From contig CAZXML010000005.1 in the NCBI GenBank assembly GCA_964641245.1, forward strand, positions 2,831 through 66,830: a stretch of 64,000 bases of DNA. Direction: 5' to 3'. Positions 39,001 through 42,000 of the stretch are shown here, in pieces. A program made the position numbers. Positions within the stretch are counted from its first letter, which is position 1. Every line of letters begins with the position of its first letter. The DNA comes from an uncultured Gammaproteobacteria bacterium (lineage in GTDB: Bacteria; Patescibacteriota; Patescibacteriia; Magasanikbacterales; GWA2-37-8).

Positions 39001-42000
39001 GGTGCGCCGCTTCCACGTCCACGACCGTACCTTCGAGATCGAACGCGATTCCCTGAATCTTCATGGCCATCTCTCCTTGTTGAGGTTTGGCTCACTTGCT
39101 GGTGAGTAGGTAGGCAGCGAGGCCAGCGGCCAAGACGCCAACGACTTTCTTCACCGTGAAAAGCTCGTGGTAGAACAGCCGACCGCCGGCTGCGGTGATG
39201 ACGATCTGAATGATGATGACCATCAGCACCACTTGAGTGATATCCATCTCCTTCCCGCCGATCATCTTCTGAAAGGCGATGGTGCCGATACCGTTGAGCA
39301 GGCCGGCTACTACCGCCAAGATGACACCAGCCTTGAACAGCGCTGCCTGATCAAATCCGCTCTTCAAGAAGGGCAGATAGACCAGGAGAGACACCGTTGT
39401 CAGGACGAACGATGCCATGATGGCGTTGAGACCGCTCGACTTCATGATGAGCGGCCAGGTGCCGAAGCAGAGACCGGCGATTACCGGCCACATCAGCTTG
39501 CTGAAAGCCATAATTGCTCCCCTGTTTTCTTCCAACCTACCATAGGCCGAGAAGACACGCCAATATATCATAAATAAACAAAAAAGTCAATGTTTCCTTT
39601 AATTTGGATACATTCTCTTAATTGCGGGGTATTATAATGGAATCTAAAACTACTTTTGAGGTTTCCACAATGACTGAATTTGCGCAAAATACTCTTCCGC
39701 CTGATTGCCAAGACTAGCAATTATTGCCGTTTGTCGTTCTTTGGGGTTAAAAGTTTTGTCATCCAACTTATCCATACGGACAATTTTATTGTCGCGGTAA
39801 TTATAATAAATTACCTGACCCCCGGCCGCTTCAACCAAAGCCGCGCCGGCGGCAAAATCCCAAACTTTCTCCTGGGCCTGAATACAAACATCAACCTTCC
39901 CGGCCGCCACCATTGCCAGTCCGAGCTCTCCCGAACGGGCTTTTTCTATTTTTTTGGAACTTTTATTAAGATTTTCGATAAATGCGTTAAACTCCGGAAA
40001 TTCAAACATACCCTGACCGACAAGCACATCCGTAAACCGTTCCTTTGGGTGCCGGTCTTTTATCATCACTCCAACATTTTTTTCCGCGGTTACCAGCAAT
40101 CCAAATTTTGGCGCGCAAATACTGCCGGCCACAATTTCACCGTCCTGAATCTTGGCAATAACAACCGCCCACTGATCAAGTTTTTTCATGTATTGACTGG
40201 TGCCGTCTATTGGATCAACTATAAAACCCGAGCCTTTTAAAATATCCGGATAATTTTTTTCATCCAAAACGCTGTCATTTTTTCCAATTTTTTCTTCCAT
40301 TAAAAATCTGGCCTCCGGGCGCGCCTTAGATAGAGAGTCAAAAATTGACTGCTGGCATTCAACATCGGCCGGCGTTACGTATGCCTGGATACTTCCCACG
40401 TTGTCTTCCGATTTAACAACTAAATCTTTTTCCGTAAACGTGCTCTGTAAACGAGTCGCTTCTTCTCCAACCGAGACCACTGTTTCCGACATCAGCTTTA
40501 CGTCCGGGGAAAATTTTTCCCAAACCTCGCCTGCATTTTCAAGTGACTCGCCTGTTTTTTTTGATTTATCCGTATTTTTTTCGGATTTCTCCGCGGCTAA
40601 TTGTTTAACTTTTTTTAAAATAAAATTAGGCAATTCATCCGGATTAGCCAAACCGATTTTTTCGGCCAGTTCTTTTTGCACTTCTTCGGTGCTTTTTACC
40701 CATTTATTATGTTTATCATAATCGCCTTCAGTAAAAATTTTTGGATATCGCTTTACTAAACCGGCATGCTTATCTTTTACGCTCACTAAATTACTGCCCT
40801 CTGTTATATTATCTATATAAAATAAAATTTTCTGCAATAAATTAACATTGTCTTTATGAACAATATCCAGGTCGCCGACCTCGTTAATAATCTCAACAAT
40901 TTCCGGTTTAACCCCGTGCTTCAGCAACACTTCCCTGCTCATTTGTTTTGTCTTTTCCACAACAGTCATCTGATTTCCCCGGCTGGCTCTTAGGGCTTCA
41001 ACCTCAACTTTTTTATTAAAATCATGTAATATGGCGGCTCGGATTAATGTGTCTTTGTCCGCTTCGGACAAGCCCAGTAAATGCGCAAATGCATCAGCTG
41101 CACCGGCTTCGGCTAGGCAATGCCTGACCACATTTGTCCAATCTTTTTGTCCGCCTGATTTTATGATGGCCGCCTTCTGTTCCGGTGATAAATTTTTAAA
41201 ACTTGGCAAATGTCCGCTTTCACGGTGTAATTTAATCAAGCTTAAATAATGCAAAGCGAGATTTGAAAAATATTCGCGGCTGGCCGTATCGTTTGCGTAT
41301 TCTTCCGAGTATGGTTGATTTTCTTTCATATTCGAAATAAATTTAAAATATTATTTATTTTATATTAAACAATACAATTTACCCGTTAATCCAATTTAAA
41401 TTTACCCAGGTATTGCGTCATTTTTTCTTTATCCGCTAAATGCTCGTTGTCTTTTTTAGAAATGATGAAATCGCCCAAAACCAGGTAGTCCATAAAGGTG
41501 TTTAAAAAGGTGTTAAACGCGTCTTTTGGCGACATTACGATTGGCTCGCCGCGAACATTAAAGGATGTGTTTATAATCAGCGGACAGCCGGTTTTATCAT
41601 AGAAAGCCTTAATAATATCGTAATATCTTGGATTTTGCTCCCGGCTGACCGATTGAATACGGGCCGAATTGTCCACGTGAGTTATAGCCGGGACATCGGT
41701 TCTTTTTACCGGCGCAACCAACAACATATACGGGCTGGGAACTTTTATATCAAAACATTCACCAAGCTTGTCTTCCAAAACTGTGGGCGCGAACGGCCTA
41801 AAACTTTCTCTAAATTTTATTTTTAAATTTACTTTTTGCCAATTTTCTTTATTGCGCGCGTCGGCAATAATAGAGCGGTTCCCCAAAGAACGCGGTCCGT
41901 ATTCCATCCGGCCGCCAAAAAGACCGATGACATTATTACCGGTAATTAAATCGGAAACTTTGGAGACAACCTCACCGGCCGATAATTTAGTGTAAACAAC

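What the first reader, a model, noticed from the sequence alone, without database searches (positions are those of the whole stretch)
39650..41329. HD phosphohydrolase fused to an IMPase-family domain
A single 559-aa protein combines an N-terminal HD domain and a C-terminal domain with both IMPase motifs (DPIDGT; WDFAAG), joined by a K/E-rich linker. I do not know this architecture from characterised proteins. Stand-alone HD, NUDIX and HAD phosphatase genes also sit at 7779-10324 in the same locus. Together these suggest a nucleotide / sugar-phosphate dephosphorylation pathway tied to glycan precursor supply (for example NDP-sugar or bisphosphate recycling).
Basis: partly seen in the sequence, partly recalled or inferred. 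Interest (0 to 1): 0.55.

Follow-up and report, generated by a model that had tools for sequence, protein, structure and literature searches.

The report
HD–IMPase two-domain phosphatase fusion
This is a real single gene that joins two different metal-dependent phosphate-removing enzyme domains, it sits in a huge sugar-coat (glycan) gene cluster of a probable Patescibacteria bacterium, and the same pairing recurs independently in related uncultured bacteria, which suggests a two-step dephosphorylation whose substrate is still unknown.

Summary
ORF 39650-41329 (-) encodes 559 aa: a strong IMPase-family C-domain (PF00459, E=7.5e-37, all catalytic motifs intact), a K/E-rich linker, and an N-domain that misses the Pfam HD and NCBIfam HDIG cut-offs. 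The N-domain is nevertheless a true HD-fold protein. H70, H102 and D103 are invariant and D173 nearly so in 80 relatives, and the AF2 model (pLDDT 91.5) matches only HD structures.

It is not an assembly artefact. Three independent assemblies carry the same fusion (100/91/79% identity), both domains are under purifying selection, and the linker has an in-frame indel.

The N-domain belongs to an undescribed HD subfamily (436 clusters at 50% identity), mostly stand-alone ~250-aa proteins. The named relatives are Patescibacteria. Members are fused to three IMPase clades in both domain orders. Others are fused to PP2C-like domains, a Dol-P-hexose-synthase-type GT2 and a cytidylyltransferase, or lie next to EEP and PP2C phosphatase genes.

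Seven or eight of eleven distinct loci are glycan clusters (NDP-heptose-like module, polyprenyl-phosphate GT2).

Best reading: a tandem phosphohydrolase, with an HD diesterase/pyrophosphohydrolase step followed by an IMPase monoesterase step, acting on a nucleotide-linked glycan precursor or by-product. The substrate is not determined. I rate it a new variant of known kinds, of moderate interest.

The parts
39650..41329 (-). Complete HD-IMPase fusion gene (559 aa plus stop codon)
   Evidence: ORF list. The same gene is called on JGI contig Ga0136847_12723625. Orthologues P0002 and P0003 have the same architecture.
40586..41329 (-). N-terminal HD-fold domain (residues 1-248). It belongs to an undescribed HD subfamily. 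The metal-ligand motif is H70 (41120-41122), H102-D103 (41021-41026) and D173 (40811-40813).
   Evidence: Sub-threshold HD and HDIG hits. Stand-alone homologues are 63-67% identical. Invariant residues. AF2 model with pLDDT 91.5. Foldseek and profile hits to HD-GYP and YqeK-type HD proteins. Coordinates verified.
40514..40585 (-). K/E-rich interdomain linker (residues 249-272, SEKNTDKSKKTGESLENAGEVWEK)
   Evidence: It evolves fast, has an in-frame 5-codon deletion in P0003 and has no stop codon. The alternative frames are stop-rich.
39653..40513 (-). C-terminal IMPase-family domain (residues 273-559). Motifs: EE345-346 (40292-40297), DPIDGT372-377 (40199-40216), WDFAAG490-495 (39845-39862).
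   Evidence: PF00459 at E=7.5e-37. The best solved relative is SuhB 3luz at E=1.1e-20. No NCBIfam equivalog cut-off is reached. Motifs verified.
39092..39571 (-). Small multi-helix membrane protein (weak EamA-like hit), first gene of the GC-rich cassette immediately downstream. It may be a flippase or transporter. Whether it belongs to the same function is inferred only.
   Evidence: EamA at E=4.9e-4, below cut-off. Hydrophobic windows. The gene is conserved downstream of the fusion in L022. The GC jump starts here.
38372..39070 (-). HAD hydrolase of the beta-phosphoglucomutase family, part of the GC-rich cassette
   Evidence: HAD_2 and Hydrolase Pfam hits. TIGR02009 at E=1e-31, below cut-off.
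37308..38225 (-). Second, stand-alone IMPase-family gene (305 aa), a paralogue of the fused IMPase domain in the same clade (29% identity), part of the GC-rich cassette
   Evidence: PF00459 at E=2.8e-19. BLASTP against the fused domain gives 8e-30, and against P0004 gives 1e-49. The JGI gene call is 305 aa.
44928..47903 (-). NDP-heptose-like precursor module: GHMP kinase (46887-47903), SIS isomerase (46251-46847), GmhB-like HAD (45667-46245) and sugar-1-P nucleotidyltransferase (44928-45662). In relatives this module carries the stand-alone HD gene.
   Evidence: Best NCBIfam hits are HddA, GmhA and GmhB, all below equivalog cut-offs. Synteny with L004 and L006, which contain the HD orthologue.
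35061..35774 (-). Short GT2 of the polyprenyl-phosphate hexose synthase type (AglJ/Dpm1/ArnC-like). The same type lies next to, or is fused with, HD-family members elsewhere.
   Evidence: Best NCBIfam hits are AglJ, PpgS and Dol-P hexose transferase. Adjacency in L008, L009 and L024. HD-GT2 fusion P0033.

Best explanation
The gene encodes a genuine, soluble, bifunctional enzyme with two independently folded, catalytically intact metal-dependent phosphohydrolase domains that act in sequence on one small phosphorylated metabolite.

The N-terminal HD domain is an HDIG/HD-GYP-like phosphodiesterase or pyrophosphohydrolase with the H...HD...D site. I propose that it cleaves a phosphodiester or phosphoanhydride bond of a nucleotide-linked compound. 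Candidates are an NDP or NMP by-product, an NDP-sugar, or a CDP-alcohol-type intermediate.

The C-terminal IMPase domain is a Mg2+-dependent phosphomonoesterase. I propose that it removes the phosphomonoester left behind.

The module serves the surrounding glycan pathway, which comprises an NDP-heptose-like precursor module and polyprenyl-phosphate sugar synthase / GT-C machinery in a probable Patescibacteria genome.

Shown: the fusion is real, both catalytic sites are conserved, this HD subfamily is recurrently coupled to phosphomonoesterases, and it is enriched in glycan loci.

Inferred: the order of the two steps and the identity of the substrate.
For: The fusion is real and under selection. 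Three independent assemblies carry it, both domains show purifying selection, and the linker indel is in frame.

Both active sites are intact.
- H70, H102 and D103 are invariant and D173 is present in 79/80 relatives. K106, W64 and Y171 are nearly invariant.
- The IMPase residues EE, DPIDGT and WDFAAG are invariant in alignment A1.

Rosetta-stone signal. Among the best 150 of 436 family representatives:
- 8 are fused to IMPase-superfamily domains, 5 in HD->IMPase order and 3 in IMPase->HD order.
- 3 are fused to PP2C_2.
- 1 is fused to a Dol-P-hexose-synthase-type GT2.
- 1 is fused to a cytidylyltransferase.

The IMPase partners fall into three mutually distant clades, and both domain orders occur within clade C. 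This implies at least 4 independent fusion events.

Unfused members overlap or abut phosphatase genes:
- An Exo_endo_phos gene overlaps the HD gene by 4 nt in L006.
- A PP2C_2-like gene lies directly after a stand-alone HD gene in L008.

Nucleotide link.
- In L006 the gene order is NTP_transferase, HD, EEP, tightly packed.
- Family members weakly match the C-terminal half of NCBIfam NF045665, the NTP-transferase family.
- The closest solved relatives are cyclic-dinucleotide phosphodiesterases and YqeK-type nucleotide hydrolases.

Glycan link.
- The window genes GT1, GHMP kinase, HAD, NTP_transferase and HD are 55, 38, 74, 75 and 63% identical to a syntenic module in L004.
- Seven or eight of eleven distinct loci are glycan clusters.
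- A short polyprenyl-P-sugar-synthase-type GT2 lies next to the fusion in L008, L009 and L024.
Against: - No substrate is identified. None of the IMPase equivalog models (CysQ, SuhB, HisN, FBPase/IMPase) is reached.
- The HD domain has no close solved relative (TM-score about 0.4, E >= 2.6e-3).
- The full-length model is poor (pLDDT 52.6), so no interdomain geometry or channel can be assessed.
- Three distinct loci with family members are housekeeping contexts rather than glycan contexts. These are L002 next to a phosphoribosyltransferase, L012/L013 next to dnaG-rpoD, and L023 next to a DNA ligase.
- In the window's own clade the partly conserved His at position 170 (H in 48/80) is Phe, so the metal site may differ from that of most relatives.
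- Hydrolysing activated nucleotides is costly and has no proven rationale here.
Confidence: 0.5

Rival explanations
1. General nucleotide salvage or house-cleaning enzyme, not specific to glycans. The HD domain opens 2',3'-cyclic or other nucleotide diesters, or hydrolyses NDP or Ap4A-type compounds. The IMPase domain acts as a 3'(2')-nucleotidase or pAp-type phosphatase, yielding nucleosides for a bacterium that cannot make nucleotides de novo. This would be a functional analogue of CpdB.
For: - The top NCBIfam hit of the IMPase domain is the CysQ bisphosphate nucleotidase model (80.7 bits, below cut-off).
- The HD domain is nearest to nucleotide phosphodiesterases and YqeK-type hydrolases.
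- The stand-alone HD in L002 abuts a phosphoribosyltransferase, with a thymidine kinase nearby.
- The HD-PP2C and clade-C fusions in L012/L013 and L023 lie among housekeeping and DNA-metabolism genes.
Against: - Most loci (7-8 of 11) are glycan clusters, and the HD orthologue is syntenic within a heptose-like module.
- There are fusions or adjacencies to a polyprenyl-P sugar synthase GT2.
- No sulfotransferase or PAPS genes were found in the window.
- The CysQ model score is far below its cut-off of 228.8.
Confidence: 0.22
2. The two domains are not coupled on one substrate. The IMPase/FBPase-type domain is a sugar-(bis)phosphate phosphatase, for example sedoheptulose-1,7-bisphosphatase or a sugar-1-P/inositol-P phosphatase, that feeds the heptose or glycan pathway. 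The HD domain has a separate nucleotide-related or regulatory role.
For: - The IMPase domain weakly hits the bifunctional FBPase/IMPase model, and clade-C partners hit Pfam FBPase weakly.
- L004 and L006, where HD is stand-alone, carry a TAL_FSA transaldolase in the cluster. The 64-kb window has no TAL hit among the scanned genes.
- Three phosphatase-type genes (the fusion, a HAD and a second IMPase) are clustered here.
Against: - Repeated independent fusions with phosphatases of unrelated folds (IMPase x3 clades, PP2C, adjacency to EEP) point to a shared reaction sequence centred on the HD domain rather than a coincidental fusion.
- The TAL correlation rests on three loci only.
- The HD catalytic residues are strictly conserved, which argues against a purely regulatory role.
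Confidence: 0.15
3. The HD domain is a MIOX/PhnZ-type di-iron oxygenase. The fusion would convert inositol phosphate to myo-inositol and then to glucuronate, feeding a GHMP kinase and a nucleotidyltransferase to make UDP-GlcA.
For: MIOX has an HD fold (established knowledge). IMPase, GHMP kinase, nucleotidyltransferase and UDP-sugar dehydrogenase genes co-occur in the window.
Against: - Only four ligand positions (H, HD, D) are conserved. The six-ligand H/HD/H/H/D pattern is absent, and position 170 is Phe in this clade.
- No MIOX, PhnZ or TmpB structure appears among the top 50 Foldseek hits.
- The GHMP kinase best matches HddA, not glucuronokinase.
Confidence: 0.03
4. Artefact: a frameshift or misassembly joined two separate genes.
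For: Stand-alone versions of both halves exist. These are HD proteins of about 250 aa at 63-67% identity, and IMPase proteins of 305-311 aa.
Against: The same fusion appears in three independent assemblies from different projects. The neighbouring genes are conserved, both halves show coding-type substitution patterns, the linker indel is in frame, and the other frames contain stops.
Confidence: 0.02

Closest known systems
SuhB / bacterial inositol monophosphatase (e.g. PDB 3luz, 2qfl) and the wider IMPase superfamily (CysQ, HisN, archaeal FBPase/IMPase)
   Same: The C-domain matches PF00459 strongly. It keeps the metal-binding EE, DPIDGT and WDxAAG motifs. Its best solved sequence relatives are SuhB and IMPase.
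   Different: It reaches no equivalog cut-off: CysQ 80.7 against 228.8, HisN 74.5 against 275, SuhB 48 against 332. It belongs to a small divergent clade with a YYxYR insertion near the C-terminus, shared with the neighbouring paralogue and with P0004. It is fused to an HD domain.
HD-GYP cyclic-dinucleotide phosphodiesterases (V-cGAP3 5z7c, PA4781 4r8z, DvhD 9rbz, Bd1817)
   Same: These are the best structural and profile matches of the N-domain. They share the all-helical HD fold and an HDxxK-type motif around H102-D103-K106.
   Different: There is no GYP motif. The additional His ligands of the bi- or tri-nuclear site are not conserved. TM-score is only about 0.38, and the sequence match covers residues 60-145 only.
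YqeK-type HD hydrolases (Ap4A hydrolase; PDB 2ogi, 3ccg)
   Same: Small stand-alone HD proteins of similar size, appearing among the top fold hits (TM 0.41/0.51). YqeK is classically linked to a PF01467 nucleotidyltransferase (NadD), by my own knowledge. One family member, P0060, is fused to a PF01467 domain.
   Different: There is no NCBIfam YqeK hit. The Foldseek E-values are 0.045-0.067. The nucleotidyltransferase in P0060 resembles RfaE domain II rather than NadD.
CpdB (bifunctional 2',3'-cyclic-nucleotide 2'-phosphodiesterase / 3'-nucleotidase); also MJ0917 (IMPase-type NADP phosphatase fused to NAD kinase). Both are cited from my own knowledge.
   Same: The logic is the same: one polypeptide that joins a diester- or nucleotide-acting domain to a phosphomonoesterase, so that two consecutive steps occur on one nucleotide-derived substrate.
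   Different: The folds are unrelated. No Metallophos, 5_nucleotid_C or NAD-kinase domains are detected. This is an analogy only, not homology.

Membership tests
IMPase superfamily (Pfam PF00459) | Profile match above the curated gathering score | tested here: met
   127.7 bits against a cut-off of 27, E=7.5e-37, residues 294-518.
IMPase superfamily (Pfam PF00459) | Metal-binding and catalytic motifs: upstream Glu, DPxDG[ST], WDxAAG | tested here: met
   EE345-346, DPIDGT372-377 and WDFAAG490-495 are present. They are invariant in the orthologues and in P0004.
IMPase superfamily (Pfam PF00459) | Mg2+-dependent, Li+-sensitive phosphomonoesterase activity | not testable with these tools
   Needs enzymology.
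Specific IMPase subfamilies (CysQ TIGR01331, HisN TIGR02067, SuhB NF008027, FBPase/IMPase NF009321) | Score at or above the NCBIfam equivalog cut-off | tested here: not met
   80.7/228.8, 74.5/275.15, 48.1/332 and 35.5/264 respectively.
HD superfamily (Pfam PF01966 / TIGR00277 HDIG) | Profile match above the curated cut-off | tested here: not met
   PF01966 scores 17.4 against 22. TIGR00277 scores 25.3 against 27.6. One close stand-alone homologue (P0011) carries a precomputed PF01966 hit.
HD superfamily (Pfam PF01966 / TIGR00277 HDIG) | H...HD...D metal-ligand motif | tested here: met
   H70, H102 and D103 are present in 80/80 relatives and D173 in 79/80. Coordinates verified.
HD superfamily (Pfam PF01966 / TIGR00277 HDIG) | All-alpha HD fold similar to solved HD proteins | tested here: met
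HD-GYP phosphodiesterases | GYP motif and the extended H/HD/H/H/D ligand set | tested here: not met
   There is no GYP in residues 1-248. Position 170 is His in 48/80 relatives but Phe here, and no further conserved His was found.
YqeK Ap4A hydrolase | Match to the NCBIfam YqeK model | tested here: not met
   No such hit at E <= 0.01 for the window protein or for family members.
MIOX/PhnZ HD-type di-iron oxygenases | Six conserved His/Asp ligands and fold similarity | tested here: not met
   Only four conserved ligands. None of these proteins appears among the top 50 fold hits.
Anti-phage defence proteins (PADLOC) | Match to any defence-system model | tested here: not met
   No families for the fusion or its three downstream neighbours.

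The most novel reading that the evidence does not exclude
The undescribed HD subfamily, together with an interchangeable phosphomonoesterase (IMPase, PP2C, EEP or HAD), forms a previously unrecognised two-step module that is a general accessory of polyprenyl-phosphate sugar synthases and NDP-sugar pathways in Patescibacteria. One possibility is that it degrades the released NDP, or a nucleotide-linked intermediate, to nucleoside plus phosphate. That would pull a reversible Dpm1-type transfer forward and recycle nucleosides in organisms that lack de novo nucleotide synthesis.
Probability: 0.2. Interest if true: 0.65.

Novelty: new variant of a known kind. Interest (0 to 1): 0.45.

Why it matters
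Both domains belong to well-known phosphohydrolase superfamilies. The HD subfamily, however, is undescribed: it has no specific Pfam or NCBIfam model and no solved relative.

Its repeated, independent fusion to phosphomonoesterases of several folds is a classic Rosetta-stone signal for an unknown two-step reaction. That reaction appears to be embedded in the very large and poorly understood glycan-biosynthesis loci of Patescibacteria (CPR).

Identifying the substrate would annotate several hundred protein clusters. It could also reveal how these reduced-genome bacteria handle nucleotide-activated sugar precursors or their by-products. It is a useful lead, not a paradigm change.

Tried and rejected
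- Full-length structure prediction with the 4-sequence alignment gave a poor model (pLDDT 52.6), so it could not be used for fold search or for interdomain analysis.
- The profile search of solved structures with the shallow N-domain alignment found nothing meaningful. The deeper alignment was needed.
- Scans of genome contigs and metagenome contigs with the N-domain alignment returned only 2 and 5 loci. The broad alignment A3 had no stretch conserved enough for a scan. A statistical neighbourhood analysis was therefore not possible.
- The third word-indexed homologue search, using the 80-sequence profile, returned only 16 proteins and no new architectures.
- Seven literature searches found nothing on this architecture. 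The topics were HD+IMPase fusion, HD+heptose, HD+nucleotide sugar, CysQ+HD, Parcubacteria heptose, DVU1551, and HD+polyprenyl+Patescibacteria.
- The promoter/terminator scan around the gene was not above the shuffled expectation.
- Readings rejected: a frameshift or misassembly artefact; a MIOX-like oxygenase; a defence-system role; a pAp phosphatase serving sulfation, because the window has no sulfotransferase or PAPS genes; and paralogy with the HD at 7779-8402.
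Full report
**1. Observation**

The ORF at 39650..41329 on the minus strand exists exactly as described: 559 aa with an ATG start.

Its C-terminal part is an unambiguous IMPase-family domain.
- Pfam PF00459 matches at E=7.5e-37 (127.7 bits against a gathering score of 27) over residues 294-518.
- The upstream EE (345-346), DPIDGT (372-377) and WDFAAG (490-495) motifs are all present.

Residues 249-272 (SEKNTDKSKKTGESLENAGEVWEK) form a K/E-rich linker.

- Pfam HD scores 17.4 bits, below its cut-off of 22.
- TIGR00277 HDIG scores 25.3 bits, below its cut-off of 27.6.

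The protein has no hydrophobic segment typical of a membrane helix.

**2. Is the fusion real?**

A search of 5.8 billion proteins found the identical protein plus two full-length orthologues of 556 aa (91% identity) and 553 aa (79% identity). The identical protein comes from JGI sample 3300010391 and is also in NCBI. The orthologues come from an ENA assembly and a Logan assembly, and I fetched their DNA.

Codon-level comparison shows:
- Synonymous changes equal or exceed non-synonymous ones in both domains. For the window against P0003, the counts are 63 synonymous and 63 non-synonymous in the HD part, and 65 and 36 in the IMPase part.
- The linker evolves faster and has an in-frame 5-codon deletion in P0003.
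- The other two reading frames across the linker are full of stop codons.
- The neighbouring genes are conserved: a carbamoyltransferase upstream in L021 and the small membrane protein downstream in L022.

A frameshift or misassembly is therefore very unlikely.

**3. What is the N-domain?**

Residues 1-248 have stand-alone homologues of about 250 aa at 63-67% identity. Two are named by their sources as proteins of a Parcubacteria group bacterium and a Patescibacteria group bacterium, and one is annotated "predicted hydrolase (HD superfamily)".

An exhaustive profile search found 436 clusters at 50% identity with E <= 1e-3, and 182 with E <= 1e-10. Most are 230-280 aa.

In an 80-sequence alignment:
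- H70, H102 and D103 are invariant.
- D173 (79/80), K106 (79), W64 (76) and Y171 (73) are nearly invariant.
- This is the canonical H...HD...D metal site with an HDxxK signature.
- A His at position 170, found in 48/80 relatives, is Phe in the window clade.

An AF2 model built with this alignment is confident (pLDDT 91.5, pTM 0.89) and all-helical.

Its ten best Foldseek PDB hits are all HD proteins: the HD-GYP domains 9rbz, 4r8z and 4mcw, and the YqeK-type 2ogi and 3ccg. The scores are weak, though (E >= 2.6e-3, TM 0.35-0.41).

The family profile matches the HD-GYP phosphodiesterase V-cGAP3 at E=3.9e-5 and Bd1817 at 2.4e-3.

There is no GYP motif. There is no YqeK model hit. No MIOX or PhnZ structure appears among the fold hits.

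The N-domain is thus a true HD-fold domain, probably catalytic. It belongs to an undescribed subfamily with no close solved relative. The other HD gene in the window (7779-8402) does not belong to this subfamily.

**4. The architecture recurs**

Seventeen of the 150 best family representatives are at least 340 aa long. Pfam and NCBIfam scans of these show:

| Architecture | Members |
|---|---|
| HD -> IMPase | P0002 (the window's cluster), P0031, P0103, P0123, P0125 |
| IMPase -> HD | P0022, P0077, P0160 |
| HD–PP2C_2 | P0089, P0090 |
| PP2C_2–HD (weak, below cut-off) | P0087 |
| HD fused to an AglJ / Dol-P-hexose-transferase-type GT2 | P0033 |
| RfaE-domain-II-like cytidylyltransferase fused to HD | P0060 |
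| Possible HAD fragment fused to HD | P0115 |
| HD plus an unknown ~280-aa domain | P0051, P0085 |

The remaining long member, P0047 (348 aa), has a hydrophobic C-terminal part with no Pfam hit.

The fused IMPase-type domains fall into three mutually distant clades:
- Clade A is the window domain, its neighbouring paralogue and P0004.
- Clade B is P0077 and P0160.
- Clade C has LDG[IL]DG[ST] and lacks the WD motif. Both domain orders occur within it.

This implies at least four independent fusion events.

Unfused members also pair with phosphatase genes:
- In L006 the HD gene overlaps an Exo_endo_phos gene by 4 nt and directly follows a sugar-1-P nucleotidyltransferase.
- In L008 a stand-alone HD-family gene is directly followed by a PP2C_2-like gene, in a locus that also has an IMPase–HD fusion.

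Family members weakly match the C-terminal half of the NCBIfam model "DVU_1551 family NTP transferase".

This is a strong Rosetta-stone signal. The HD enzyme appears to work with a phosphomonoesterase of any fold, and with nucleotidyltransferase-type chemistry.

**5. Genomic context**

The window is essentially one very large glycan locus, with nearly all genes on the minus strand. Its genes include:
- many GT2, GT1 and GT4 glycosyltransferases
- two UDP-sugar dehydrogenases
- several epimerases and dehydratases
- aminotransferases
- methyltransferases
- four radical SAM genes (three with a B12-binding domain)
- a GT2–PMT_2 fusion
- a Wzx-type flippase
- FtsW

Directly upstream of the fusion lie the following genes:
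- a carbamoyltransferase
- an SxtJ-like small ORF
- a B12-radical SAM enzyme
- a four-gene module whose best NCBIfam hits are HddA, GmhA, GmhB and a sugar-1-P nucleotidyltransferase, all below equivalog cut-offs

This module, including a GT1, is syntenic with L004 and L006. GT1, GHMP kinase, HAD, NTP_transferase and HD are 55, 38, 74, 75 and 63% identical to the L004 genes. In those loci the HD protein is stand-alone.

Other fusions also lie in glycan loci:
- L008 and L009: a short GT2, a UDP-sugar dehydrogenase and a PMT-type GT-C.
- L010: a C-methyltransferase, epimerases, NUDIX and EEP.
- L024: a C-methyltransferase and a short GT2 five nucleotides upstream of the fusion.

The short GT2s next to the fusions, and the one in the window (35061-35774), all best-match polyprenyl-phosphate sugar synthases such as AglJ, Dol-P hexose transferase, PpgS, ArnC and PgfS.

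Three distinct loci are not glycan contexts:
- L002, next to a phosphoribosyltransferase.
- L012/L013, next to dnaG-rpoD.
- L023, next to a DNA ligase.

**6. Mechanism**

*Shown:*
- It is a real fusion.
- Both catalytic sites are conserved.
- This HD subfamily is recurrently and independently coupled to phosphomonoesterases.
- It is frequently embedded in glycan, nucleotidyltransferase and polyprenyl-P GT2 contexts.

*Inferred:* the HD domain cleaves a diester or anhydride bond of a nucleotide-linked compound, and the IMPase domain removes the remaining phosphomonoester. Candidate substrates are an NDP or NMP by-product of glycosyl transfer, an NDP-sugar, or a CDP-alcohol-type intermediate.

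I give this coupled tandem-phosphohydrolase reading about 0.5.

*Rivals:*
- A general nucleotide-salvage enzyme, analogous to CpdB (0.22).
- Uncoupled domains, with the IMPase part acting as a sugar-(bis)phosphate phosphatase that feeds the heptose pathway (0.15).
- A MIOX-like oxygenase (0.03).
- An artefact (0.02).

A pAp/CysQ role has no local support. No sulfotransferase or PAPS gene was seen in the window, and the CysQ model score (80.7) is far below its cut-off (228.8).

No PADLOC defence model matches.

**7. Comparison with known families**

The C-domain is a member of the IMPase superfamily but of none of its characterised subfamilies.

The N-domain is an HD-superfamily member by motif and fold. 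It fails the curated profile cut-offs and fails the defining features of HD-GYP, YqeK and MIOX.

Functionally, the closest analogies are bifunctional enzymes such as CpdB and the IMPase–NAD kinase fusion MJ0917. I cite both from my own knowledge. They are analogies only, not homologues.

No paper describing an HD–IMPase protein was found in the held library. I could not query InterPro.

**8. Verdict**

The finding is a new variant of known kinds: an uncharacterised but recurrent architecture built on an undescribed HD subfamily. Interest is moderate (0.45).

Noticed in passing
window 37300-39570: This segment is a sharply bounded GC-rich island (55-60% GC against about 38% in the flanks), directly downstream of the fusion gene. 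It holds three genes: a small EamA-like membrane protein, a beta-PGM-family HAD hydrolase, and a second IMPase paralogue. It looks like a laterally acquired cassette. The membrane-protein gene is also present downstream of the 91%-identical orthologue in L022.
   Followed up: partly
window 6400-7600: A second GC-rich island (up to 66% GC). It carries a 204-aa ORF that matches only part of the NDP-hexose 2,3-dehydratase profile, and a 182-aa ORF with no Pfam hit. It may be another foreign insertion or a gene remnant.
   Followed up: partly
window 37308-39095 (-): The mechanical ORF list gives a 595-aa GTG ORF that runs through the HAD gene in another frame. This is an artefact of the high GC content. 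The real IMPase2 gene is 305 aa (37308-38225), as called by JGI.
   Followed up: yes
window 23554-25767 (-): A 737-aa protein fuses a GT2 domain (polyprenyl-P sugar synthase type) to a PMT_2 GT-C domain. Donor synthesis and transfer would therefore sit in one polypeptide.
   Followed up: no
window 388-2361, 33712-35049, 43443-44909, 50056-51456 (-): Four radical SAM genes lie in one glycan locus, and three of them have B12-binding domains. The best, weak hit of the gene at 43443-44909 is HpnJ. This suggests unusual C-methylation or rearrangement of sugars.
   Followed up: no
window 41386-43436 (-): A NodU/CmcH-type carbamoyltransferase (619-aa ORF; JGI aa) is preceded by an 82-aa ORF with a faint SxtJ hit that overlaps its 5' end. 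The carbamoyltransferase is also conserved upstream of the fusion in L021. A 73%-identical copy lies near a frameshifted HD-family gene in L020.
   Followed up: partly
This HD is not in the fusion's HD subfamily, and its weak PADLOC hits are generic matches to Cas3/Cas10 HD domains.
   Followed up: partly
L008 4164-5829 and L006 7289-9547: Unfused HD-family genes are directly followed by a phosphatase-type gene: PP2C_2-like in L008, and Exo_endo_phos with a 4-nt overlap in L006. In L006 the HD gene is directly preceded by a sugar-1-P nucleotidyltransferase.
   Followed up: partly
L020 9950-10742: An HD-family gene appears split into two overlapping ORFs, either a frameshift or a pseudogene. 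It lies in a locus that also has a carbamoyltransferase 73% identical to the window's.
   Followed up: no
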